DNA of 63,962 nucleotides, the filler included, from Cladosporium halotolerans (Eukaryota): assembly GCF_011745625.1 (NCBI RefSeq). It is 8 parts of 8 records of this genome, joined end to end, with 100 filler letters (N's around TTAATTAATTAA, not from the genome) between each part and the next. Parts side by side here need not be neighbours in the genome. Positions count along the whole stretch, not along the records: positions 58,399 to 63,962 come from NW_027191664.1; 7 more parts are not named here. One strand, 5' to 3'. The position numbers were made by a program, and so were the translations under genes. Positions 8,561-63,962 of this stretch are shown piece by piece. The notes under the pieces were generated by a model that saw only the letters and a list, made by a program, of their open reading frames with translations, searched no databases and was not told where the DNA came from. Within the stretch, counting starts at the first letter, position 1, and the number at the start of each line of letters is the position of its first letter.

Positions 8561-8660
8561 NNNNNNNNNNNNNNNNNNNNNNNNNNNNNNNNNNNNNNNN
8601 NNNNTTAATTAATTAANNNNNNNNNNNNNNNNNNNNNNNNNNNNNNNNNNNNNNNNNNNN
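8561..8660. other. Artificial contig linker
   Basis: N44-TTAATTAATTAA-N44; stops in all six frames. Confidence 0.99.
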
Positions 8661-12936: not shown

Positions 12937-13341
12937 TTGCACGCCAAGTACCCTCACTACTCCGATTCCCGCGATGACATCAAGCGGTGCTGCAGCGCTG
13001 GCTTGGAAAGGTCTGTGTACCCTGACGCTATTCGCAAAGTCTTCTCATTCATCGAGATCATCGAAAGGTGGCCTGAACTGCACCACGATGCGCGCTTGAT
13101 TCAAATCTGGCCTATCGAACTGCACCCGCATCTCATGTTTATGCTAACAGATTGTCAGCCTGTCGCATTGCTTGTCCTAGGAAATTATGCGGCGCTGCTC
13201 AAGTTGAGGTCTGGAAATGTCTGGCCTTTCGCAACTTGGCCTCATCTGCTTCTGCAAGCGGTAGAAAAACCGCTTGGCCACGGGTGGCAAGCCTCACTTG
13301 AATGGGCAAGACGGATAGTTTCAGGGTTCAGCACAGAATAA
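12937..13341 (+). pseudogene. C-terminal fragment of an Upc2-like fungal transcription factor
   Basis: WP..L..CQPVALLVLGNYAALL..W..W..L.W pattern; no Zn2Cys6 region upstream. Confidence 0.6.
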
Positions 13342-17035: not shown

Positions 17036-17135
17036 NNNNNNNNNNNNNNNNNNNNNNNNNNNNNNNNNNNNNNNNNNNNTTAATTAATTAANNNNNNNNN
17101 NNNNNNNNNNNNNNNNNNNNNNNNNNNNNNNNNNN
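17036..17135. other. Artificial contig linker
   Basis: N44-TTAATTAATTAA-N44. Confidence 0.99.
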
Positions 17136-25392: not shown

Positions 25393-25492
25393 NNNNNNNN
25401 NNNNNNNNNNNNNNNNNNNNNNNNNNNNNNNNNNNNTTAATTAATTAANNNNNNNNNNNNNNNNNNNNNNNNNNNNNNNNNNNNNNNNNNNN
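25393..25492. other. Artificial contig linker
   Basis: N44-TTAATTAATTAA-N44. Confidence 0.99.
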
Positions 25493-33709: not shown

Positions 33710-33809
33710 NNNNNNNNNNNNNNNNNNNNNNNNNNNNNNNNNNNNNNNNNNNNTTAATTAATTAANNNNNNNNNNNNNNNNNNNNNNNNNNNNNNNNNNN
33801 NNNNNNNNN
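33710..33809. other. Artificial contig linker
   Basis: N44-TTAATTAATTAA-N44. Confidence 0.99.
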
Positions 33810-41930: not shown

Positions 41931-42030
41931 NNNNNNNNNNNNNNNNNNNNNNNNNNNNNNNNNNNNNNNNNNNNTTAATTAATTAANNNNNNNNNNNNNN
42001 NNNNNNNNNNNNNNNNNNNNNNNNNNNNNN
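41931..42030. other. Artificial contig linker
   Basis: N44-TTAATTAATTAA-N44. Confidence 0.99.
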
Positions 42031-44012: not shown

Positions 44013-45863
44013 GTGATCTCCAACGCCTCGCTGGCGGGAATGTTATCCCCCAGTAAAGATGGCGGAGGTACGCCCGCAGGTGACGTTTCAGGGTCTGAAG
44101 CGTCCGGGGAAAGCTTCCAGCCAATCGGGAGCCTCGCTAACAGAAAGCTGTTCACGCCGGGCTTCAATCGTGAACGATCTCAGAGCCAAGAATACCAGCA
44201 GGTCGCCAGAACGTGCCCGGCAAGTCCCAAAAAGCGGAAGGTAGACTCGAATATCGCTGTGAGCATTGATGAAGATGCGCTATGGCAGGAAATCGAGAAA
44301 GCCGTGGCGAGGGCGTTGCAGGCCTTTGTGGGGCCCGACTTCGCCAAGGGGTCATTTGGAGATGTACAGTCTCTACGAAGCGAGATCAGAGCGATCAGGG
44401 AAAGTGTCGACAGGACGCAAATGCAAATCATGGAGGCCGTGAGTGATACGGTGGCCAAAATGCAAGCGGAAGCGGACCGGCGAGTGGCCAGCATCCTTGA
44501 AAGACTTACGCAGATACCTGACGGCGCACCCACACAGGACAAAGGCAGAGACACCGTCCCGTCTGATGCTGACGAGCGGCCAGATCGTGTTGCGCCGGGC
44601 CCTGTTGCGCAAAACAGACAAAAGCCAGCCCGAGCAACGCAGCGGACCTGGGCTAACGTTGTTGGAACGGGAACGCCAACGGCCGTTGGATGGACCACAG
44701 TCACCAACGGCAAGAGAAAGTTACAGAAACATCCGTTGGAACAGAGGCGTATCCTGTTCGCTAGGAACGTCCAGACTCACACTTGCGACCCACGAGACCT
44801 CATGTTCGAAGTCAACAAAGCCCTTGCGCACGCGAGAGCCCACGTGACGGTGAGATTGATCAAAATGAGATACACGGAAAAAGGCAATTTGACTGGGCTG
44901 TTGAATGAGACCGCTCGCGTGGAAGATTTGCTCGAGTACGCGCCGGCCGTGATGGCCGCTGTGCACAAGCTTGACCCTGAAGTGATGTACATGGGCAAGA
45001 CGGAAAAGTGGCGCAAGCTGCGTGTGCATGGCGTTGCGCTGGACCGCTACATGCGCGATGGTGGACTGGGTTTAGTGAGGGAAGAAATAGAGCTCATGAC
45101 GGGTGAACAGCTCCCGTACGCGCCCCGGTGGATCAAGGAAGACACGCTCAGCGACCGATTCCACAGAGGCACCGTCAAGCGGTCGACGCTGGTCTTGACC
45201 GTGAAAAGCAAGCAGGCCGCAGACGCCATTTTGGCAAAAGGCCTCTCCTTTGGGGGCAGACGGCACGAAGCAGAGAGATTCTGGGAAAGAGGAGAGGGAG
45301 GTATATGCTTGCGCTGTTGTGGGCGAGATCACTTCGGCAAGTGTACAGAACAGTCGAAGTGCTTCGTCTGTGCTGGCGAGCATGAGGGTAGTAAGCACCA
45401 GTGCACTGCACAGGATTGCGGCAAGAAATCAGAACCGTGCGAACACCACCCAGCGAAGTGCGCTAATTGCGGTGGACAGCATGTGGCAGCGTCGCGAAAG
45501 TGCCCCGAGCGGTGGTCAAAGACAGCCAGGCGTGCCAAGGACACTACCGAGTTGCGCAGCAGCCCTCCTATACTGGGGGCCAGCCAGAATCAGTGCCGAA
45601 GAGCGTCCCGAGAAACGTCGTCCAAGGACGACTCGACACCGACCAACCCTGAACGAATCACACCTACCAACCCCGCAGCAACCACTCCTTCTGACATGGG
45701 GAAAGACGCCGCAGAAGATTTGTACAACGACACGTTCCCTGAGTTCTACCAAGAAATGTTCGGGACCAGGACTGCGCGCGGGGCGAACTCATCGCCTATA
45801 CTAGTGCAGAGCTCAAGCGATCCGACCCCAATGTCCGTCGATGATGATAGTGCTTCAACATAA
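44013..45863 (+). CDS. LINE ORF1 (gag-like nucleic-acid-binding protein with Zn knuckles)
   Basis: Coiled coil, TWANV, CLRCCGRDHFGKC, CFVCAGEH, CANCGGQH..CP; first ATG at 44040. Confidence 0.9.
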   Translation: MISNASLAGMLSPSKDGGGTPAGDVSGSEASGESFQPIGSLANRKLFTPGFNRERSQSQEYQQVARTCPASPKKRKVDSNIAVSIDEDALWQEIEKAVARALQAFVGPDFAKGSFGDVQSLRSEIRAIRESVDRTQMQIMEAVSDTVAKMQAEADRRVASILERLTQIPDGAPTQDKGRDTVPSDADERPDRVAPGPVAQNRQKPARATQRTWANVVGTGTPTAVGWTTVTNGKRKLQKHPLEQRRILFARNVQTHTCDPRDLMFEVNKALAHARAHVTVRLIKMRYTEKGNLTGLLNETARVEDLLEYAPAVMAAVHKLDPEVMYMGKTEKWRKLRVHGVALDRYMRDGGLGLVREEIELMTGEQLPYAPRWIKEDTLSDRFHRGTVKRSTLVLTVKSKQAADAILAKGLSFGGRRHEAERFWERGEGGICLRCCGRDHFGKCTEQSKCFVCAGEHEGSKHQCTAQDCGKKSEPCEHHPAKCANCGGQHVAASRKCPERWSKTARRAKDTTELRSSPPILGASQNQCRRASRETSSKDDSTPTNPERITPTNPAATTPSDMGKDAAEDLYNDTFPEFYQEMFGTRTARGANSSPILVQSSSDPTPMSVDDDSAST

Positions 45864-48800
45864 TTGCAACGGCACGGCAGTGTCAACCGTTGCTGCCTTG
45901 GAAGCAGCCATCGAGCGAGGCGCCGAGGTGGCATGCTTACAGGAACCGTACGTTGGAAAGAGGCACACGATCAGCCACCCCGGTTTCCAGATACGCTGGC
46001 CAGAATGCGCAAAGCAAGAAACGAGGGTGGCGTTGGCGCTTCGCAACGACGCGCTGGATCGCTACGTGTTCGAAGAGAGGACGGATCTGGTCGAAAGCCC
46101 GTATGTGCAGTGCCTGGATGTTTGGGAGACAGTGCATCGCAAAAAGGTCCGGCGGACAAGAGTGATCAACGTCTACAACAGAGCCAGGGTAGAAGACGGT
46201 GGATACGCGATCGACCACATAGACCTATCGCGACTGATCGTGGGCAGGACCATCCTAGCGGGTGATTTTAACGCGCGCAGTCCTTCGTGGGATCCGTGGG
46301 TTTCAGGTAGACAAAACGCGACAATGGTGGAACGGCTGATCGAGAGGCAGGAACTCATAATCAACAATAACGACCACCAACCTACCAGGCGCGGGAAGAA
46401 CTGCAGATCCATCATCGATCTGACCTTGAGCACCCAATCCCTTGGAGCACTCACGACTTGGGAAATCGAGGAAGGCTTGGCCACGACCTCCGATCACGAG
46501 GTCATTGTGTTCGCGTGGCCGCCACTCCCTGCTGGAATGCCAGAAGGACCAGCAAGAACTGCGCAACATTGGGATATCGACCGGCTTTGTGCAGACGAAC
46601 AAGCTATGAACGAGGCTGGCAAACACTGGCGTTTGCTGAGCGAAGGGAGGCCGATCGTAAACGCTTGGCGAGCGACCGCGGCGGAGCTTGAAGCCGAAGC
46701 ATGCTGGATGCAGAAGGGTCTTAAAGTTGTATTGGATAGCTACGCACCCGGAAGACAGCCGCACGCACGCTCGAAGCGGTGGTGGTCAAGCGAGATCAAG
46801 CTTGAGAGGACGCGCTTTGGGCGATCGAGGCGCGATTACAACGATGGGCGGATCGGCTTTGACGATTACCGTCAAGCCAGAAACTTCTACTATCGCTATA
46901 TTCGGAGAGCCAAACGCCTGGCTTGGGAACGCTTCCTTGAAGGCGTCTTCCCAACCGACGAAGAGTCCCAACTCGCACCTGACCCTGAGCGATGCTGGAG
47001 AGCACTCCGATACACTAAAGCTCAAGTGCCATCTTACACACCGGCGATCAACATCAGTGGTTCGCAGGGCCAGCCTGACCGGATAGCGGCGACTGCTGAG
47101 GAGAAGGAGGAGGTTTTCATGGCGCAAGCATTTCCGCCTCAGGCGGAAATTCAGGAAGACATCGAGTTCCCAGACTCCAGCGCAGGTGTCAGTGCGCGTG
47201 AGGTCCGCAAAGCGCTTTTCGCTCAGTCTTTCAAGAAAGCTCCCGGCGTGGACGGCATTGGCTTCAAGGCGCTCAGGCTGCTGTGGGTTGGGGCAGAAGA
47301 CCGCATCGTAGCTCTCGTTAGAGGATGTGTCGAGACGGGATTCCACCCTTGCACGTGGAAGACCGCAAAGGGCATTTTGTTGCGCAAGCCGGGAAAGCCG
47401 ACTTACAAAATTGCGAAAGCGTACCGGGTCATCAGCCTGCTCAGCTGTCTTGGTAAGGTGGTCGAGAAGGCAGTTGCAACGTGGATCGCCTCTTTCTGTG
47501 AGAGAAACGAAGTCTTTCATCGGGGCCAATTCGGATGTCGGCGGGGAAGAAGTGCATCGGACGCCGTGGCACAGCTGGTCACAAAGGTCGAATCTGCGTG
47601 GAGTAAGAAGCATATAGCCCTGGCACTCCTGCTAGACGTCAAGGGGGCGTTCGATCGCGTCAGCAAACCGCAGTTACTGAGGCGGATGATGCAAGCCGGC
47701 ATCGCCGGCAACATCGTGCGCTGGGTCGGTTCATTCCTGTCGGATCGGCAAGCAATGCTGGTCATCGATGGACGGACAGGTCAAACTCGAAGCACCAAGG
47801 CTGGCCTGCCGCAGGGCTCGCCAGTGTCGCCGGTGTTGTTCATCCTCTCCATCAGCGCCATGTTCCAATGGCTCGAAGATAGACATCCGACAGCCCAAGC
47901 CCTCTCGTTTGTTGACGATGTAGGATTGGTGATTGAATGCGACAACCTGGTGGAGGGAACGAATAATCTCGAACGCATTGCCGGGGACGCGCTGCGATGG
48001 GGATCAGAGAACAAGGTCGAGTTCGAAGTCAGCAAGACCGAGGTTTTGCTGTTTAGCAGACGTCGGAAAGTGCTGAACGCAGCCAAGATTGGAACCGTCA
48101 ACATCGGAGATCAAAGTTTCGCCGTCAAGCAGGGAGCGACCAAGTGGCTTGGCTTCTGGCTCGATCTGAAGCTGTCATTCAGGACGCATTTTGAGAACAG
48201 ACTGGCAAGCGCAAAAGGAGCCCTGCAGCGGATGTCGAGCCTTAGCAGAAGCAACGGCGGCTTGCCCGTTAGGCTGATGCGGAGGATAGTGGTGGCTGCA
48301 GTGACCTCTGTGGCACTATATGGAGCGGAGATCTGGTGGAGGGGCCAACGAGATCGAGCGGAGAAGCTGCAACTCTTGTTAAACAAACAAGCTAGAGCCA
48401 TCACCGGCTTGCTGAAGTCGACGCCTCTGCCCTTACTCTAGCAAGACGCTCGTCTACCTTGTGCTAGGGACCTGCTTGACTACCGTCAGACCAGGTACGC
48501 CACACGCGCGCTAAAGGCGAACGGGGACCACCCGACACACCAACTGCTACCTGCCAACTTCCGCTTCGGTGAGATTTACCGACATGAAGGCGCGACAGGC
48601 CAACCATCCAGTACCGGGTGGTCGACGCCTGAGAAGACATATCGATCTTTCGGAAGCAGACTTGCCCAGCAGATCGTCCGGCACGTCAGCTACGACACCG
48701 AGTATGGATTCAACCTGCCTTGCAAGGCAACCTCGCGGGACTCGCGGGGGACGAAACCTGTGACTCGGACACTGAGCTACTCGCAATTGCCAACAAGAAT

Positions 48801-50123: not shown

Positions 50124-50223
50124 NNNNNNNNNNNNNNNNNNNNNNNNNNNNNNNNNNNNNNNNNNNNTTAATTAATTAANNNNNNNNNNNNNNNNNNNNN
50201 NNNNNNNNNNNNNNNNNNNNNNN
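50124..50223. other. Artificial contig linker
   Basis: N44-TTAATTAATTAA-N44. Confidence 0.99.
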
Positions 50224-58298: not shown

Positions 58299-58398
58299 NN
58301 NNNNNNNNNNNNNNNNNNNNNNNNNNNNNNNNNNNNNNNNNNTTAATTAATTAANNNNNNNNNNNNNNNNNNNNNNNNNNNNNNNNNNNNNNNNNNNN
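58299..58398. other. Artificial contig linker
   Basis: N44-TTAATTAATTAA-N44. Confidence 0.99.
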
Positions 58399-59402
58399 GC
58401 CGTAAGGACTTCACCACCTGGGAGCAAACGAAAATGATGGCGATGTTTTTGCGCTGTCTCAGATACGTGTGTGGAGGCCACTTGCTTGAACAGGAGGGTG
58501 CACTCTGGCACAGCAAGCGCGAGAGAACGGTCGGTGATCCACCGCGTTTGCGGCTTTGGTACGGTCTTGGCTTCAAGAACACCCTTCCTATGCATAAGTA
58601 CTGCTGGATGGAGCCGCGTATAGACTGGAACACCGTCCAGTTCAAGTCGGACGTGACAGACAACGTGCTCTTCGGCAATAAGACCCTACAGGGCGAGTAC
58701 CTCCGTCGCGGAAGGCAGGCGAAAGGCTTCTTCGACATCAGTCGACAGCTTGAGCTCGCGTTGGACTGGATCGGAGAGCATCGGAACAACGATCGGCTCT
58801 GCGATCGACTCGTGTCATGGATGGTACACATCTGTCTGGTGCAGTTCCGGCTAGACGTCATGAGCGCGGTGAAGGGCGAAGTCAAATCGGAAGTGCAAGA
58901 AGAGGCACTCAAGGGAGAAAAAGGTCTGTGTCACGAGTACGTCGACGAGATAATGCGCGGAGGCTGCTATTTGATGTCGGGCAACAAGACCGAGTTCAAG
59001 CAAGTATCCAGACTAGGTCACTTCCTTTTCGACTTCGACGACGGGGTGGTTAGGGAGCACTGGGAGGACAGGCCATTCAGGGTGTTATATCGACGAGCGA
59101 GGACGGGCGTCAGGATCCGGAACCGGCAGTACAAAAGGCTTTTCCAGGCAAGACTGTGGGAATGGCTTTACGAGTACCACTGGGTGTTGCCATACCCCTG
59201 CGGCAACGCACTTCTCCAGACCACCAAGACAGGAAAGCGAATGTGGTACTCAATCCAGCGCAGCGCGGAGGACGATAGACGATCGGAAAAGTGGGAATGG
59301 GCGAGGAAAGGATGGCAGGGAGGAAGGCCGAGAGAGTTCCCGGCCTGGACGAAGTGGGGCAAAGAAGAATGGCAACAGTGGATAGAGAGAGGAGGCATGT
59401 AG
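58399..59402 (+). CDS. Uncharacterised Trp/Arg-rich protein, C-terminal part (open from the contig edge)
   Basis: Frame open from RKDFTTWEQTKMM to the stop at 59402; more than 330 codons, intronless; no domain recognised. Confidence 0.75.
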
Positions 59403-59631
59403 GTCCGTCAGGGTTGGATCAAACAGCTGGAATAGCCATGCGCTCAACTCGGTATCCCTGCGTCTCAAGATGCAACGAGGAGGAGACATGGAACGAAGCG
59501 CACGTCACATAGTGAACACATCACGACCACAAGATACATGGAGTAAACATAGGATCTTCCGACGATCCGTTACAGCAGCGTGACCACCGCGAGACGTGAC
59601 CGCACGCCCGCCCTGGCAGCCCTATGGCGAA

Positions 59632-59699
59632 TTTCGCGATCGAAACTAGGCTGTATCGGGGTTTCGCGGTCAACGCCAAGCCCAGCCTGGAATTTCGCG
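59632..59699. promoter_or_regulatory. Three TTTCGCG (CGCGAAA, SCB-like) boxes upstream of the helicase
   Basis: Exact heptamers at 59632, 59662 and 59693. Confidence 0.45.
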
Positions 59700-59785
59700 G
59701 TCGCGTTGACGCCGCTGCGGGCACCTGTGGGGCACCGTTGTCTCGCCGTTACTTCACTCACAACGCATCCCAATAGCGGCAAACG

Positions 59786-61825
59786 ATGGTCGACGAAACC
59801 CCGTCCAAAAAAAGGGGGAGACCGGCAAAGTACGCCAGCCCGTCAGAGAAAGCACGCGCAGACGTGGAGCGCAGGCGTGTGCTCCGACAGAAGGAAGCCC
59901 ACGACCGACGCGAGCGCTTGCACGCACAATTCTACGGCGCAAAATCGTCCGTCGTTGCTAAGCAGACGCCGAGTAGAGGACTGGACATTATATTGGAGTA
60001 CCCAGGAAAGCGTGAGTACACAGAAGGGCAAGATGGACGACCTCCAACGGACCAAGCCGTAGATCTACCCCGCCAGCAATGCCAGCACGGTAGCGAGGAC
60101 GATCACGAAAGTCCAAGTGCCGATACCGCACACAATAAAGTGATTCCGGATCCAACGCTATGCAGAGAGCAATCGGAGCTCGTCGAATTGGTACTCTCAG
60201 GCGCCAACGTCTTCTACACGGGCGGAGCCGGGACCGGCAAATCTACAGTCTTGCGAGCGATTATGAAAGAGCTGCGACAGAGGCACCGGCGGGTTCAAGT
60301 CGTTACGCCCACCGGTATCTCGGCGCTCAACGTCAGCGGCAGTACATACTTCACTTACGCAGGATGGAACCCCGGAGTCATGAAGAAAACGATCGAGGAG
60401 ATCAGACACATGGCGATGTCGAAGGAGCGTCGTCAAAGGATAAAGGACACGGACGTACTCATCATCGACGAAATCAGCATGCTCGAGTCAAACCAATTCC
60501 GACGGTTGGATCAGGCGTGTCGTGCGGCACACCAGAACGACGTTCCGTTCGGTGGCATCCAAGTTGTCGTGACGGGCGATTTTTACCAGCTGCCGCCCGT
60601 CAAGGCGTTCCAGACTTGCTTCGAGTGCGGAGTCGAACTAAAGGCGAAGCTATTTTGTAAGGGGTGCGAGCAGCCGCCGCCGCCGGCAGATCAAACGGAT
60701 ACGCGGCAACCGTCGAATCCGAGGCCGCGTGAAAGTTGTTTGGGATGCGGCTTGGGATTCCAGAAGCAGTTGAAGTGTCCACACTGCAGAGACGAATCTT
60801 GCACGGATGACCAGTGGCCATTCCGCAGCGAGGTCTGGGATGAGTGCAACTTCCACTGTGTCTCGCTGGCGGAAGTGCATCGGCAGAGCGACCCGACGTT
60901 CATCGGCATTCTGAACAGCCTTCGCATAGGTGACAAGCTGGATAAACACCAGTTGGCGCTTCTAGACGGCCGGGAGGGCGATGTGGGAGAGGCGGTAGAG
61001 CTCTCTCCGGTACGACGGGAGGTCGAGCAGAAGAACTCCGAAGGCTTCCAGGCAATCCGCGGCGCGGTTCGTGCGTACAAATGCCAGGACTACGTGCACA
61101 TCCAGCCGCACCACCCACATCTGGCAAACAAGGAAGAGCAGGATGGCGAGGGCAACAAGATGGGCTGCCGGGAACATCGCTTCCCACCGGTGCTAGAGAC
61201 CAAGTTCGGCATGCCCGTCATTCTGCTGGCAAACATCGACGCCGGTGCGGGACTGGTCAACGGCAGCCAAGGGCGCATCGTGGGATACTCGCCGCACAAG
61301 CCACTGATGAAGCAGCGGGAACGCAAGTTGCGAGAGTCAGGCGAGTTTAGTCATTTGGAAGAGCACGAGATCGTGTCGTGGGCCCAGCAGCAGGCGGCCG
61401 AGTTCCCGTTGCCCATCGTTCGGTTCGAGAACGGGGTGCAAGTCCCGGTGTACCCGGTGTGTCAAGACACGGAGCTCGGCGACCCGCCGCCATTCAGCGT
61501 GGTGGCGCGGACGCAAATCCCACTACTCCCGGCGTGGGCGATCACAATCCACAAGTCGCAGGGGATGACGCTAGAGAAAGCGGTGGTGAATCTAGAGCAC
61601 ATCTTCGAGCCGCAGATGGCATACGTGGCATTGTCCCGGGTACGCGGTCTGAGGGGATTGAAGGTGGTTAGCGGAGTCGGGTTGGACGTACTCCAGGAGC
61701 GTGGCAGACTGGGTGGCGGCAACCCCGTGGTTAGGAAGTTCATGAAAGAGACGTTTGGTCCGCCAGAGAGAACGGGAAACACGGAGGACTTTTTGGGGTC
61801 ATCGATAGAGGGTGACGAAGGATAG
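59786..61825 (+). CDS. PIF1-family SF1B DNA helicase with an N-terminal AT-hook and a four-CxxC insertion
   Basis: TGGAGTGKS, PTGISA, IIDEISM, PFGGIQVVVTGDFYQLPPV, VHRQSD, GLVNGSQG, RTQIPLLPAWAITIHKSQGMTL, QMAYVALSR. Confidence 0.93.
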   Translation: MVDETPSKKRGRPAKYASPSEKARADVERRRVLRQKEAHDRRERLHAQFYGAKSSVVAKQTPSRGLDIILEYPGKREYTEGQDGRPPTDQAVDLPRQQCQHGSEDDHESPSADTAHNKVIPDPTLCREQSELVELVLSGANVFYTGGAGTGKSTVLRAIMKELRQRHRRVQVVTPTGISALNVSGSTYFTYAGWNPGVMKKTIEEIRHMAMSKERRQRIKDTDVLIIDEISMLESNQFRRLDQACRAAHQNDVPFGGIQVVVTGDFYQLPPVKAFQTCFECGVELKAKLFCKGCEQPPPPADQTDTRQPSNPRPRESCLGCGLGFQKQLKCPHCRDESCTDDQWPFRSEVWDECNFHCVSLAEVHRQSDPTFIGILNSLRIGDKLDKHQLALLDGREGDVGEAVELSPVRREVEQKNSEGFQAIRGAVRAYKCQDYVHIQPHHPHLANKEEQDGEGNKMGCREHRFPPVLETKFGMPVILLANIDAGAGLVNGSQGRIVGYSPHKPLMKQRERKLRESGEFSHLEEHEIVSWAQQQAAEFPLPIVRFENGVQVPVYPVCQDTELGDPPPFSVVARTQIPLLPAWAITIHKSQGMTLEKAVVNLEHIFEPQMAYVALSRVRGLRGLKVVSGVGLDVLQERGRLGGGNPVVRKFMKETFGPPERTGNTEDFLGSSIEGDEG

Positions 61826-62479
61826 GGTTGTCAGATCGGGCGGGCATTCATGCATCGTACGGAGGAGATTTGAGGGGAGGGGGGGGGTTCGATAGCGGTA
61901 GCAAAATGAACACATCACATGTACAAGACAACGGAATAGATGTGTAAGGTCAAAGAAGGACTTGATGTTCGACGAGGAGTATCATGTTAGCAGGGCGTGA
62001 ACGCGAGGATAAGTCAGCAGCGGGCGCAGGCACAAGGGTTAGGGTGGGCGAGAGCCGGTGCCAGAGGCAGAAGGGCGAAGCATATAGACGTAGCGAATCA
62101 GAAGAGGTAAAAGGCGTGATGGAAAACCCGGGAGGGGACAGCCGTTAGGCGGGCGGTTAATGGATGGCATAGAGAGGCCGGTATGGTTCGGTTGGGGCAC
62201 AGGAATGGATTGTAAATGCATTAGCGTAACGGTGGTACCGGACGACCGGGTCGAAGGTGCAAAGCAGGTAGAACAAGTAGAGCATGGGCGATAGAGAGAA
62301 AGATTACGAGCACGAGGGTATTTAGGGGAGAGGTCAGAAGGCGGTGCTGGAAATAAAGTTTTCGATTGAAGACAAGGTTTTTGCGAAGGTAAGAGACGAA
62401 TGTATGGTGGTTCGTCGGCGGAGCGAGAGACAAGACGAACGAGGAGCATAGAGGGAAGTAAATATCGCGGAGGAGTCAT

Positions 62480-63897
62480 GAAGAGCAGGGACGAGAAGAG
62501 AAGGTCAAATATTTAGAAGCAAGAAAACAAAGAAAGAGAGCAAGGAAAAGAAGGACATGGAACCGGAACAGGAACAGGAATAGGAACAGGAAGAGGAGAG
62601 TTCATAGGTAAGATGAGATGAAAGTTAAATTAGAAGAAGGAGAGTTGATGAAAAAAGAGTGGGTGATGTAGGTAGGTCATGGTGTTGAAAAAAAGAAAAA
62701 AAGTTGAATGATAGGAGTTTGTTAAGAGAAAAAAAAAAAGGGTAGGTGATGATGAAAAAAGAACGAAACAGATAGAGAGGGAAGGGGAGAGGGAAGGGGG
62801 AGGGATTTGAGAATGGGAGAGTTATATAGTGTGATATATTTAAGGAGGTGGGAAGTAGTTATATGTGAGGGTTTGTGGATGGGCGAATAAGGAGAATAGT
62901 AGATTGAAGTGAAATGAGGAGTGAAGCGGGGATTGAAGAGAGTGGGGGAGAGTAATAATGATCAAGGTTAGAGAGAAGATAAAAATAAAGAGGAGGAGAA
63001 GATTGGTTAGAGTTAGGGGGTATAGAAGTTAGGTAGTAGTGGAAGGATGAGGATTAGTGAAAGTGAGGAGGAAGGAAGAGGGTAATAACAAAGGTGAAGA
63101 AGTGAAGAGGGAAGAGGATGATTAGTGTATGTAGTGAAAGAAGATTTTATATATATATGAGTAGAGTGAGAATTGAGTGATTGGAAGGGTTAGAAGGGGG
63201 TGGAATGTAGAGACGAGAGAAGTAGAGGGGGAGGAGGAGGTGGGTAAGAAGAATGGAGATGAAGCAGAGTGATATGGTAGAGGATTGGTTGAAGTGAGTG
63301 AGGGTTGGGTGGAAGTGGGGATTAAAGGAGAGGGTTAGTGATATGAGTAGGGGGAAGAAGGAAGAAGAGGAAGAGGGAAGGATAGGAAGAAGGAGAAAGG
63401 GGATAGGGATAGGGATAGGGATGGGGATGAATAATGGATAGAGTAGGATGGGGTTGGATTTTAGAATTAGGAGGTTGGAAAGGGTGAAATGGAAGAGGAG
63501 AGGGGAGGATTTGGGTTTAGGGTATAATGGAGGAGATAGGGGGTAATGTGAAGGAAGGAAGGGTTGAGGTTTTGGAGAAGTTTTGGAGTGTGAAGAGATG
63601 AGAAGGGTTGAAATATTAAATGAAGAAAGAGTTGGGATAAAAAATGGATGGTATGAAGTGAGGGAAGAGGAAAAGGATAGTGGTGATGAAGGATGATTGT
63701 GATGGTGGGTGGGTTGGTTAGTTGGGTTAGGTTAAGTAAGGGATTGGAAGGGGATGATAGGAGGTGTAGGAGGGAGTGGGTTAAGGGTTTAGGGTTGGTA
63801 GGAGAATAGGAGAGAGGGATTAAGGGTGAAGGGATTAAGGGTAGAAGGAAAGGGAAGGGGTATTATATAAGGAAGTATGGGTATAGATTTAGAAAAA
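62480..63897 (+). other. Cytosine-depleted, G/A-rich strand-asymmetric tract
   Basis: About 11 C between 62581 and 63897, and none in 63266-63897, while G remains abundant. Confidence 0.95.
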
Positions 63898-63962
63898 CAA
63901 AGTTATTTTATTATTAATTTTAAAGCTTTATTCGATAGTATATAGCTCCTAGTATCTATTCC

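What the first reader, a model, noticed from the sequence alone, without database searches (positions are those of the whole stretch)
62000..63897. Gradient of cytosine loss on one strand, ending in 632 nt with no C
Seen: C is common near 62.0-62.45 kb, sparse at 62.5-63.27 kb and absent from 63266-63897. The sequence stays non-repetitive and G-rich, so the minus strand has no G. Known: repeated RIP normally removes C on both strands, mostly at CpA, and yields AT-rich DNA. Inference: all-context, single-strand, positionally graded C loss suggests deamination of a persistently single-stranded region (displaced strand, resected end or R-loop), or selection for a G-quadruplex-rich tract. G4 DNA is a known PIF1 substrate.
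Basis: partly seen in the sequence, partly recalled or inferred. Interest (0 to 1): 0.75.

Follow-up and report, generated by a model that had tools for sequence, protein, structure and literature searches.

The report
Cytosine-less DNA strand behind fungal helicase gene
Just downstream of a PIF1-type helicase gene in a Cladosporium-like fungus lies a real, inherited stretch of about 1.3 kb whose one strand has almost no cytosine, a property kept in a distant relative although the sequence itself has changed, which looks like the lasting footprint of a strand that is often left single-stranded.

Summary
Window 63266-63897 has no C in 632 nt, and 62604-63265 has 9 C in 662 nt. G stays near 40% and the sequence is aperiodic. 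Independent read sets from other studies carry the same tract, so it is not an artefact. The decline is stepwise (C/(C+T) 0.47, then 0.06, then 0) rather than smooth, and it does not reach into the upstream PIF1-like ORF. It is not RIP, because dinucleotides are random-like. G-runs are not enriched. A relative with a 68%-identical helicase has an unalignable but equally placed C-poor, 78%-purine tract after the same gene pair, again with residual C nearest the gene. The property therefore outlives the sequence, which needs an ongoing bias or selection. Between strains, 3 of 4 substitutions are C/T at window C sites and none is G/A. My best reading (about 0.4) is a strand-specific, context-free C>T pressure on a recurrently single-stranded, 3'-ending strand. 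The likely source is resection from a chromosome end or break at the tail of a possibly subtelomeric helicase element, or else R-loops. Rivals are a decayed telomere-type G-strand relic, a selected C-less element, and an enzymatic burst. Telomere adjacency and transcription could not be tested.

The parts
58399..63962 (.). Last of 8 small contigs concatenated in the window. It carries the whole feature and is cut by the window end.
   Evidence: One search shows the spacers N44-TTAATTAATTAA-N44 and piece lengths descending from 8560 to 8075.
58434..59402 (+). ORF P0002 (322 aa), probably cut at its N-terminus by the contig start. It belongs to a fungal family with no Pfam domain that recurs upstream of this PIF1 type.
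   Evidence: no Pfam match; a homolog lies upstream of the PIF1 gene in L003, split over several reading frames; 54 homologs, several longer, named ones from Cladosporium, Exophiala and Fusarium. AF2 mean pLDDT 59 and no PDB fold match.
59786..61825 (+). Intact PIF1-like SF1B helicase ORF (679 aa).
   Evidence: PF05970, 2e-29; Pif1_2B, 5e-7; closest named relatives are Cladosporium, Hortaea and Cercospora; third-codon C/(C+T) is 0.54-0.89 throughout.
61826..62603 (+). Zone ii, a transitional 3' flank: 70% purine, C 13.9%, CpT o/e 0.12. It holds GGGTTAGGG-type 6-mers at 62035-62045 and (GGAACA)6.5 at 62559-62597. Parts of it occur elsewhere in the genome.
   Evidence: One search shows loose ends at 61975, 62217, 62257, 62565 and 62600, summed depth of 311-541 over 61933-62304 in X1, and an X3 record that joins 62257 to 62565 with 370 letters in place of 307.
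62604..63265 (+). Zone iii, a C-poor block: 9 C in 662 nt, 78% purine, no telomere-like signal.
   Evidence: 2 of the 9 C (62927, 62963) are T in run X3.
63266..63897 (+). Zone iv, a C-free block: 632 nt, A 33.5%, G 44.1%, T 22.3%. It is aperiodic, has patches resembling degenerate TTAGGG/GGGATA, and is nearly structureless as a single strand.
   Evidence: 6-mers within 1 mismatch of TTAGGG number 136 against 74.5 +/- 12.7, and wraparound alignment gives z=5.6. MFE is -18.8 against -236.7 kcal/mol.
63864..63962 (.). AT-rich sequence joined to the tract. It is high-copy in the likely source run and may be organellar or another repeat. In X3 the alignment to the window stops at 63860, and the first 30 of the 129 further letters are also C-free.
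   Evidence: depth 1408 in the bin 63793-63962 of X1, a loose end at 63864 in X1 and a loose end at 63860 in X3. One search gives the sequence.

Best explanation
The tract is a real, heritable, discrete block. It runs from 62604 to at least 63860 and is preceded by a purine-rich transitional flank from 61826. It forms the tail of a conserved unit made of a P0002-family ORF, a PIF1-like helicase ORF and the tail itself, in a Cladosporium-like Dothideomycete.

Its + strand is the sense strand of the helicase gene, and its 3' end points away from the gene. This strand is kept free of cytosine by a continuing C>T mutation pressure that is strand-specific and independent of context. That is the footprint expected if this strand is recurrently single-stranded while its partner is absent or protected. 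Cytosine in single-stranded DNA deaminates far faster than in duplex DNA (established chemistry), and the change is fixed when the partner strand is resynthesised.

The polarity fits exposure from the far side best. The loss is most complete at the gene-distal end, the distal edge is abrupt in the relative, and the affected strand is the 3'-ending one. This is what 5'-to-3' resection at a chromosome end or a recurrent break would produce, that is, the distal tail of a subtelomeric, Y'/TLH-like helicase element. Co-transcriptional R-loops downstream of the gene are the alternative source of single-strandedness.

Shown: the tract is real; the loss is one-stranded and in all contexts; the profile is stepwise; the property is conserved without sequence conservation; strain differences are biased to C/T. 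Inferred: the direction of the changes, the single-stranded state, and the chromosome-end location.
For: 1. Real and inherited. Contigs from 4 runs of 4 studies carry it. 20 listed runs from 19 studies hold at least part of it.

2. One strand only, in every context. C is 0-1.4% while G is 38-44%. Dinucleotide o/e values are about 1, with no TpA excess. Keto content (G+T) rises 0.488, 0.531, 0.591, 0.665 from the ORF outward while purine content plateaus.

3. The property outlives the sequence. L003/L004 (helicase 68% identical, same upstream P0002 homolog) has 13 C in 1133 nt (A 56%, G 22%, T 21%; 78% purine). This tract starts about 100 nt after the stop codon, on the same strand. It is not alignable to the window tract. 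A one-off event followed by neutral drift would have restored C.

4. Same polarity in both lineages. In the window, 9 of 9 residual C lie in the gene-proximal half (hand calculation p=0.002). In L003, 11 of 13 do (p=0.011). L003 returns abruptly to 19-39% C at 13233.

5. Present-day variation. Between the window and X3, 3 of the 4 substitutions in 61779-63860 listed (the contig row gives 5 other letters; the list is truncated) are C in the window and T in X3, although C is 5.9% of the bases (p=7.9e-4). None is G/A, although G sites outnumber C sites by 834 to 123 (p=2.1e-3). 2 of 9 residual C differ against 0 of 1248 other sites (p=4.6e-5). X1 and X5 carry the C allele at 62927 and 62963, so T is the rarer allele.

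6. Hints of a chromosome-end-type element:
- In X3 the tract contig has depth 81, against 4-6 for the helicase part. X5 covers only the tract.
- Relatives L001 and L002 have (TTAGGG)2-type repeats upstream of the helicase gene, with the G-strand pointing the same way as the tract.
- Degenerate telomere-like patches occur only in the distal, C-free zone.

7. As a single strand the tract cannot fold: MFE is -18.8 kcal/mol for 632 nt, against -236.7 for an equal length of the ORF. An exposed strand or its transcript would therefore stay open.

8. Precedent, from passages read in PMC3521656. Telomere uncapping in yeast gives long 3' single-stranded overhangs over subtelomeric DNA. Cytosine-deaminating agents then produce strand-coordinated clusters of mutations there.
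Against: - No telomere array is seen next to the tract. In the window it abuts AT-rich high-copy DNA, and in X3 it goes on with other C-free letters.
- In L003 the tract lies inside a 115-kb contig with ordinary genes on both sides.
- The main drop is a step at 62603/62604, which coincides with a breakpoint of paralogous copies. Resection of variable length would give a slope.
- Deamination does not explain 78% purine. G/(G+A) does not rise steadily: 0.564, 0.531, 0.492, 0.568.
- The direction of the 3 C/T differences rests on allele frequency in 4 samples, without an outgroup. At equilibrium, gains and losses are equally expected.
- Depth differences may reflect library type or expression rather than copy number, because the run kinds are guesses.
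- No RNA data were available, so the R-loop variant is untested.
Confidence: 0.4

Rival explanations
1. The tract is a relic of G-strand telomere-type DNA: telomerase-made or telomere-variant repeats taken into the chromosome as a long degenerate interstitial telomeric sequence. On this reading it was C-free from its origin. Older, gene-proximal parts have decayed further and gained a few C.
For: - Zone iv resembles degenerate TTAGGG. 6-mers within 1 mismatch number 136 against 74.5 +/- 12.7. Exact rotations number 17 against 5.3 (p=0.006). Wraparound alignment scores 74 against 26.1 +/- 8.6 (z=5.6). Zone iii shows none of this (z=1.4).
- The 12-mer TGGAAGTAAGGG, which sits between TTAGGG repeats in relative L002, matches zone iv within 2 mismatches 29 times against 8.8 +/- 5.4.
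- A step at the proximal edge, C rising with presumed age, and the G-strand orientation all fit.
- L001 and L002 carry telomere-type repeats upstream in the same orientation.
Against: - There is no periodicity at 6 nt beyond z of about 2-3, and none at longer lags.
- Purine-run lengths are near geometric.
- TTAGGG ranks only 74th of 487 candidate units by raw fit.
- T is 22% (33% expected) and A is 34-40% (17% expected).
- Enough change to scramble the purine/pyrimidine pattern should have brought in many T>C transitions, yet 632 nt hold none. An active bias against C is therefore still needed.
- By my recollection fungal telomeres are only about 0.1-0.2 kb long; the tract is at least 1.3 kb.
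Confidence: 0.2
2. The tract is a selected, functional C-less element of the P0002-PIF1 unit, which may be mobile. It could be an unstructured purine-rich RNA or a DNA strand serving as a loading, pausing or termination platform, for instance for the helicase encoded beside it.
For: - The property is conserved at the same place, on the same strand, with a similar length and the same purine share (0.78) in two lineages whose tract sequences are unalignable.
- The strand is almost unable to fold.
- Purine richness is not explained by deamination.
- The tract part differs less between the window and X6 than the gene part does: 9 of 1115 against 38 of 1581 (p=0.0015). This comparison is confounded, because X6 resembles the second gene variant in X1.
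- The copy number of the tail appears to vary among strains.
Against: - No conserved motif, structure or RNA family was found: Rfam gave 0 matches at gathering score and at E<=1, and no tRNA was found.
- Indels are as common as substitutions between strains: 5 gaps and 5 other letters in X3. That looks neutral.
- Four relatives of the helicase with downstream sequence (L001, L002, L005, L007) lack such a tract.
- In L003 both genes look broken, yet the tract is still C-poor.
- No terminal repeats typical of a transposon were seen in L003. Pfam found no Rep/HUH domain.
Confidence: 0.15
3. The tract is the product of an enzyme-driven burst of hypermutation on one strand, by a RIP-like process or an AID/APOBEC-like deaminase acting on a repeated or mobile copy.
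For: - Parts of the flank, and in X3 perhaps the whole tail, are multi-copy, which is what RIP needs.
- The L003 tract carries a clear RIP-type mark on the other strand: TpG o/e 0.02, TpA o/e 1.30, TpA/ApT 1.58.
- By my recollection, single RIP passages are strand-coordinated.
Against: - The window tract has no context signature (TpA o/e 0.97, TpG o/e 0.87), and C is gone from all contexts.
- In the transitional zone the surviving C sit in CpA (o/e 1.32) and CpG (o/e 1.21). CpA is the RIP-preferred target, so this is the opposite of what RIP would leave.
- G is untouched.
- The adjacent ORF is untouched.
- A burst cannot explain persistence across lineages.
Confidence: 0.08
4. The tract is a sequencing or assembly artefact, or a chimera.
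For: - The feature lies on a small contig of a fragmented assembly.
- Its right end joins a sequence of about 60-fold higher depth. That junction could be a mis-join or a captured high-copy fragment.
Against: - The tract is assembled independently from reads of 4 runs in 4 studies. One contig of 2084 nt has 0 differences. Another of 2206 nt shows natural variants.
- A relative has the same kind of tract.
Confidence: 0.01

Closest known systems
Strand-coordinated cytosine mutation of resected subtelomeric single-stranded DNA in yeast (cdc13-1 reporter; PMC3521656, passages read)
   Same: The 3'-ending strand next to a chromosome end is the one exposed. Only C on that strand is hit. The partner strand is removed and resynthesised, so G is kept.
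   Different: That system is experimental and acute, produces clusters of a few mutations, and follows the context of the agent used. Here the loss is natural, complete over at least 0.6-1.3 kb and kept over evolutionary time. A position at a chromosome end is not shown.
Strand-asymmetric deamination gradients in vertebrate mitochondrial DNA (recalled, not read here)
   Same: Amino bases are lost on one strand in a graded, position-dependent way, in step with time spent single-stranded. Keto (G+T) content rises.
   Different: That case is organellar, spans the whole genome and is partial: C is never absent. Here the tract is nuclear-linked, bounded and stepwise, and the A>G component is not consistent.
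R-loop-prone GC-skewed regions at gene ends and immunoglobulin switch regions (recalled)
   Same: The non-template strand downstream of or within a transcribed unit is G-rich and purine-rich. The displaced strand is a target for cytosine deamination.
   Different: By my recollection those regions keep many C and are often repetitive, and switch regions need AID. Here the GC skew reaches 1.0, and transcription is untested.
Subtelomeric helicase elements (yeast Y', fungal TLH/RecQ families; recalled)
   Same: A helicase ORF lies in a unit whose distal part varies in copy number. Telomere-type repeats flank relatives in a consistent orientation.
   Different: The helicase here is PIF1-type (SF1B), not Y'-Help1 or RecQ. 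No terminal telomere array is seen. A C-less tail has not been described for those elements, as far as searches and my memory go.
Repeat-induced point mutation (RIP)
   Same: It gives C>T changes in fungal repeats. The relative's tract shows RIP-type TpG loss on the opposite strand.
   Different: RIP is biased to CpA, affects both strands and yields AT-rich DNA with A about equal to T. The window tract has no such signature.
Telomeric and interstitial telomeric G-strand repeats
   Same: One strand lacks C and is G-rich. The orientation fits. Degenerate TTAGGG-like patches occur in the distal zone.
   Different: The tract is not a tandem array. It shows no periodicity and its composition differs.

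Membership tests
RIP-mutated repeat | TpA excess with CpA/TpG depletion (TpA/ApT above about 0.89; (CpA+TpG)/(ApC+GpT) below about 1.03; thresholds recalled) | tested here: not met
   In window zone iv, TpA/ApT is 46/49 = 0.94, (CpA+TpG)/(ApC+GpT) is 54/51 = 1.06, and all dinucleotide o/e values are 0.82-1.30. In the L003 tract, TpG o/e is 0.02 and the indices are 1.58 and 0.14, so the feature is met there, on the minus strand only.
RIP-mutated repeat | Both strands affected, giving AT-rich DNA with A about equal to T | tested here: not met
   G is 38-44%, C is 0-1.4%, A is 34-40% and T is 21-22%.
Telomeric or interstitial telomeric repeat array | Tandem TTAGGG units (at least 2 in a row) with 6-nt periodicity | tested here: not met
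   no (TTAGGG)2 anywhere in the window; the lag-6 z score is only 2.1-2.8; the TTAGGG unit ranks 74th of 487.
Telomeric or interstitial telomeric repeat array | Degenerate similarity to the telomere unit above what composition alone gives | tested here: met
   met in zone iv only (z=5.6; 136 against 74.5 6-mers within 1 mismatch). Not met in zone iii (z=1.4).
G-quadruplex-rich tract | Excess of G3+ runs and G3+N1-7 four-run motifs over composition | tested here: inconclusive
   4 motifs against 1.2 +/- 1.0 (p=0.023), all inside small tandem repeats. GGG 80 against 89.1 and GGGG 23 against 37.4 in shuffles, so there is no excess of G-runs.
R-loop-forming region | Strong positive GC skew and a purine-rich non-template strand | tested here: met
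   GC skew is 0.89-1.0 from 62600 onward; 78% purine.
R-loop-forming region | Transcription through the region and detectable RNA-DNA hybrids | not testable with these tools
   No run on record as RNA was listed. Only contigs could be laid.
Subtelomeric helicase element (Y'/TLH-like) | Helicase ORF in a unit repeated at several chromosome ends | tested here: inconclusive
   The helicase ORF is intact. X1 holds two variants of the gene part. The tail has depth 81 against 4-6 in X3, but depth is not proof of copy number and the loci are unknown.
Subtelomeric helicase element (Y'/TLH-like) | Adjacent to a terminal telomere array | not testable with these tools
   No whole genome is held. The contig is cut by the window end. 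In the window the tract is followed by AT-rich high-copy DNA.
Helitron | Rep/HUH endonuclease domain joined to the PIF1-like helicase | tested here: not met
   Pfam finds helicase families only in P0001 and nothing in P0002; no PDB fold match for the P0002 family. Helitron ends were not searched for.

The most novel reading that the evidence does not exclude
The C-less, purine-rich, unfoldable tail is a functional, conserved part of a previously undescribed PIF1-helicase element of Dothideomycete fungi, made of a P0002-family protein, a PIF1-like helicase and the tail. It would act in cis as a permanently open single-strand or R-loop platform, for example for loading the element's own 5'-3' helicase, for chromosome-end maintenance or for spreading the element. 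Its lack of cytosine would then be both the consequence of this state and a condition for keeping it.
Probability: 0.15. Interest if true: 0.85.

Novelty: new variant of a known kind. Interest (0 to 1): 0.62.

Why it matters
Strand-specific loss of cytosine from exposed single strands is well known from experiments, tumours and organelle genomes. A natural nuclear locus where it has gone to completion over more than a kilobase would be different. If the loss is also kept across lineages and still visible in strain-to-strain variation, the locus would serve as a built-in recorder of chronic single-strandedness.

Such a locus would give a tractable place to measure how often, and by which route (end resection or R-loops), a defined locus is single-stranded in a wild fungus. 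It would also allow a test of whether the adjacent PIF1-type helicase is linked to that state.

It also flags a conserved gene pair (unknown protein plus PIF1-like helicase) with a characteristic tail. This may be a new kind of subtelomeric or mobile element in a ubiquitous mould.

Tried and rejected
- **Whole genome.** None is held for this window. Records behind loci L002, L003 and L005 are not held either. Genome-wide frequency of such tracts and telomere adjacency therefore could not be tested.
- **RNA families and tRNA.** Rfam gave 0 matches at gathering score (whole window) and at E<=1 (last contig). No tRNA was found.
- **Repeats.** No long direct repeats were found in the window. The last contig has no similarity to the other 7 contigs or to itself.
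- **Coding.** There is no long ORF in the tract. The longest stop-to-stop frame is 194 aa on the G-free strand, which has only TAA as a stop.
- **Source sequence.** BLAST of the tract against C>T-converted copies of all 31 loci and the rest of the window gave only chance-level hits (best E=0.004 over 35 nt). The 3' flanks of relatives show no similarity to each other beyond the coding tail.
- **Transposon ends.** No terminal inverted or long direct repeats flank the L003 unit.
- **P0002 family.** It has no Pfam domain. ESM Atlas gave only weak hits of 0.79 or less. The AF2 model has mean pLDDT 59, and Foldseek against the PDB gave no match at E<=0.001. Its function remains unknown.
- **Other collections.** A 30-mer of the tract has no exact match in genome contigs or viral contigs.
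- **Earlier findings of this scan.** Nothing relevant turned up.
- **Literature.** Searches, for which I saw listings only, turned up no description of a one-strand cytosine-less tract or of PIF1-type subtelomeric elements in fungi. This is not proof that none exists.
- **RNA holders.** No RNA holder was listed.
- **Read coverage gaps.** Parts without cover in X3, X5 and X6 are not taken as absence. The reading that X5 lacks the gene is only a hint.
- **Cryptic-simplicity (slippage) origin.** Repeated k-mers are barely above a first-order Markov expectation: z=0.3-0.9 at k=6-8, and z=2.5-4.3 only at k=12.
Full report
**What the window is**

The window is not one locus. It is 8 small contigs of a draft assembly, joined by N44-TTAATTAATTAA-N44 spacers in descending size order. 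The finding lies on the last contig (58399-63962), which the window end cuts; by the size order, at most about 2.5 kb is unseen.

Gene content of the other pieces marks a filamentous fungus: a cellobiose-dehydrogenase-type cytochrome domain, a patatin-like protein, a protein kinase and a LINE-type EN-RT. The closest named relatives of the helicase are from Cladosporium, Hortaea and Cercospora. The source is therefore a Dothideomycete, probably Cladosporium. No whole genome is held.

**Check of the observation**

Window 63266-63897 is the longest C-free run (632 nt). The next real runs (125, 124 and 114 nt) lie just upstream of it. The other long runs are N spacers. C per 100 nt is 10-20 over 62000-62599, 0-2 over 62600-63265, then 0, while G stays at 31-50. 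The chance of 632 consecutive non-C bases is 1e-41 even at the C frequency of the adjacent flank.

The tract is not a tandem array:
- TRF finds only short microsatellites.
- Autocorrelation shows nothing beyond z of about 3 at lags 1-400.
- Repeated k-mers barely exceed a Markov model.
- Purine and pyrimidine run lengths are near geometric.

**Reads**

The stretch is held, at least in part, by 20 listed runs of 19 studies under many organism labels and in soil, wastewater and phyllosphere metagenomes. That fits a ubiquitous mould. Laying four runs gave the following:
- X1 has one 2084-nt contig over 61810-63893 with 0 differences, at depth 22.5.
- X3 has a 2206-nt contig over 61779-63860 with 5 other letters and 5 gaps, at depth 81.
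- X5 covers 61934-63156 in five pieces with 1 difference.
- X6 covers the gene and the tract up to 62926 at 95-99% likeness.

The tract is real and polymorphic. Only the right-hand junction is doubtful. From about 63864 the window runs into AT-rich sequence of depth 1408 in X1. X3's alignment to the window stops at 63860, and its first 30 further letters (of 129) are also C-free.

**Shape of the decline**

Among the pyrimidines of 61826-63897, two steps fit best (AIC 395.6): C/(C+T) is 0.47 up to 62603, 0.062 up to 63265, then 0. One step gives AIC 404.0 and a smooth logistic slope 421.9.

The first step sits at a (GGAACA)n microsatellite. Other contigs in X1 and X3 break away from the window at this same place (loose ends at 62565 and 62600). 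It is therefore also a structural junction.

Third-codon C/(C+T) in the upstream ORF stays at 0.54-0.89 to the last codons. No mutational slope enters the gene.

Inside the tract there is still polarity: all 9 residual C lie in the gene-proximal half (my hand calculation from the positions, p=0.002).

**Composition and context**

- Purine content rises from 0.57 (ORF) to 0.70, 0.78 and 0.78.
- Keto content (G+T) rises from 0.49 to 0.53, 0.59 and 0.67.
- G/(G+A) shows no steady trend.
- Dinucleotide o/e values in the tract are 0.82-1.30, with no TpA excess and no TpG loss, so this is not RIP.
- In the transitional flank the surviving C sit in CpA and CpG, and CpT is nearly absent (o/e 0.12). 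RIP would leave the opposite pattern.
- G-runs are fewer than in shuffles. Four canonical G4 motifs (against 1.2 expected, p=0.023) lie in small tandem repeats. Selection for quadruplexes is not supported.
- As a single strand the C-free zone is almost structureless: MFE is -18.8 kcal/mol, against -236.7 for an equal length of the ORF.

**Surroundings**

Upstream on the same strand lie an intact PIF1-like helicase ORF (59786-61825; PF05970, 2e-29) and before it an ORF of a fungal family with no Pfam domain, P0002. I could not assign a fold to P0002. Pfam finds no Rep/HUH domain, so this is not a Helitron by that criterion.

**Relatives**

A scan of metagenome contigs with an alignment of 18 close homologs gave 31 loci.

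L003 and L004 are identical over the stored stretch. They carry a helicase 68% identical to the window's, with one in-frame stop, and a P0002 homolog split over several reading frames. About 100 nt after the helicase stop codon they hold a 1133-nt tract with 13 C (A 56%, G 22%, T 21%; 78% purine). At 13233 this tract ends abruptly in normal sequence. It lies inside a 115-kb contig with ordinary genes on both sides.

The L003 tract does not align with the window's tract; only the coding parts align, at about 74%. In L003, 11 of the 13 residual C are in the gene-proximal half (p=0.011). TpG is almost gone there (o/e 0.02). The other strand of that copy has therefore been hit by a RIP-type process, which explains why it is A-rich rather than G-rich.

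Four relatives with downstream sequence but no P0002 homolog (L001, L002, L005, L007) have no such tract. No other one-strand C-less or G-less stretch over about 110 nt occurs in the 31 loci or in the other 58 kb of the window. The one exception is a 104-nt telomere-type array at the start of L002.

**What this implies**

The same property appears after the same gene pair in two lineages: the sense strand without C, about 78% purine, about 1.1-1.3 kb long, and most complete at the distal side. The sequences of the two tracts have diverged beyond alignment. A single hypermutation burst, or an origin as C-free DNA, cannot alone explain this. Neutral drift large enough to erase alignability and to randomise the purine/pyrimidine pattern would have brought in many T>C transitions. 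Either a strand-specific bias against C is still acting, or C is selected against.

**Present-day variation**

Between the window and X3, 3 of the 4 substitutions listed in 61779-63860 are C in the window and T in X3 (62311, 62927, 62963). The contig row gives 5 other letters, and the list of differences is truncated. C makes up 5.9% of the bases (p=7.9e-4). None is G/A, although there are 834 G and 123 C (p=2.1e-3). Two of the nine residual C differ, against 0 of 1248 other sites (p=4.6e-5). X1 and X5 share the C allele at 62927 and 62963, so T is the rarer and probably derived state. There is no outgroup, and the sample is tiny.

**Chromosome-end hints**

- In X3 the tail has depth 81 against 4-6 for the gene part. 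X5 covers the tail only. In X1 the gene part exists in two variants, and parts of the flank reach summed depths of 311-541. The tail therefore seems to vary in copy number independently of the gene. This is expected of distal subtelomeric blocks or of truncated mobile copies. It would also follow if X3 were an RNA library, since the run kinds are guesses.
- L001 has (TTAGGG)2 165 nt upstream of the helicase start codon. L002 begins with (GGGTTA)2(TGGAAGTAAGGG)6(GGGTTA)2. In both, the G-strand runs in the same direction as the gene and the tract.
- Degenerate telomere-like patches are enriched in the C-free zone only: z=5.6 by wraparound alignment, and 136 against 74.5 near-matching 6-mers. The signal is patchy, however, and TTAGGG is not the best-fitting unit.

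**Most likely mechanism (confidence about 0.4)**

The + strand is recurrently single-stranded, and its cytosines are lost by deamination that does not depend on context. The changes are fixed when the partner strand is resynthesised, which is why G is spared.

Three features fit 5'-3' resection from a chromosome end or a recurrent break at the distal side: the affected strand is the 3'-ending one, the loss is most complete distally, and the far edge in L003 is abrupt. Yeast experiments with uncapped telomeres show exactly this strand-coordinated cytosine mutagenesis of subtelomeric 3' overhangs (PMC3521656, passages read). R-loops behind the helicase gene are the other possible source. The nascent RNA would be purine-rich and unstructured, which should favour hybrids, but transcription is untested.

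Against this reading:
- No telomere is seen next to the tract.
- L003's copy is internal.
- The main drop is a step, not a slope.
- Purine richness is unexplained.

**Rivals**

- A decayed telomere-type G-strand relic (0.2). This explains the step, the age-like gradient and the motifs. It does not explain the total lack of C after so much scrambling.
- A selected C-less element of a helicase unit (0.15). This explains the conserved property and the purine richness. No motif, structure or transcript is known.
- An enzymatic burst on one strand (0.08).
- An artefact (0.01; refuted for the tract itself).

**Novelty and score**

Searches, for which I saw listings only, found no description of such a tract. 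Passages were read in one paper.

The class of process is known from mitochondrial strand asymmetry, R-loop GC skew and mutation clusters on resected single strands. A complete, bounded, evolutionarily persistent one-strand loss of cytosine in nuclear-type DNA, tied to a conserved PIF1-type gene pair, is a new variant of that kind. I score interest at 0.62.

Noticed in passing
window 8561-8660, 17036-17135, 25393-25492, 33710-33809, 41931-42030, 50124-50223, 58299-58398: The window is a chain of 8 unrelated small contigs joined by N44-TTAATTAATTAA-N44 spacers, in descending size (8560 down to 8075 nt). Long-range readings across these points are meaningless.
   Followed up: yes
window 44040-48441 (+): Two overlapping ORFs (607 and 866 aa). 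The second has endonuclease (PF14529) and reverse-transcriptase (PF00078) domains, so this is a LINE-type retrotransposon that looks intact.
   Followed up: partly
L002 1-104: A telomere-type array, (GGGTTA)2 + (TGGAAGTAAGGG)6 + (GGGTTA)2, at a contig end about 8 kb upstream of a PIF1 homolog. Its G-strand points inward. It is either an interstitial telomere junction with an unusual 12-nt variant unit or a telomere variant of that fungus.
   Followed up: partly
L001 2477-2488: TTAGGGTTAGGG lies 165 nt upstream of the start codon of a PIF1 homolog, on the sense strand. It may be a remnant junction or a telomere-box promoter element.
   Followed up: no
window 58434-59402; L003 8765-9715: A fungal protein family with no Pfam domain (54 homologs; named ones from Cladosporium, Exophiala and Fusarium) recurs directly upstream of this PIF1 type. 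Two hits, P0155 and P0007, have the same longest-contig length of 16302 and so may lie on one contig. The fold is unknown (mean pLDDT 59, no PDB match).
   Followed up: partly
window 63864-63962: AT-rich sequence joined to the tract has about 60-fold higher depth than the tract in run X1 (1408 against 22.5). It may be a captured mitochondrial fragment, a high-copy repeat or a mis-join. In X3 the alignment to the window stops at 63860.
   Followed up: partly
window 60590-60800 (PIF1 ORF, residues about 278-335): The helicase carries an insertion with four CxxC pairs (CFEC, CKGC, CLGC, CPHC), conserved as invariant or near-invariant cysteines in the 18-sequence alignment. It looks like a zinc ribbon inside the helicase core.
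   Followed up: no
window 58505-61665 (reads of run X1): Run X1 holds two variants of the P0002-PIF1 region at similar depth (about 27-31 each, for example 20 differences in 217 nt), but one tract contig at depth 22.5. There are therefore two paralogous gene copies, only one of which is followed by this exact tail.
   Followed up: partly
window 61826-62603: In the transitional flank, CpT is almost absent (2 observed, o/e 0.12) while TpC (o/e 1.24) and TpT (o/e 1.57) are in excess. This is a directional dinucleotide bias that none of the explanations accounts for.
   Followed up: no
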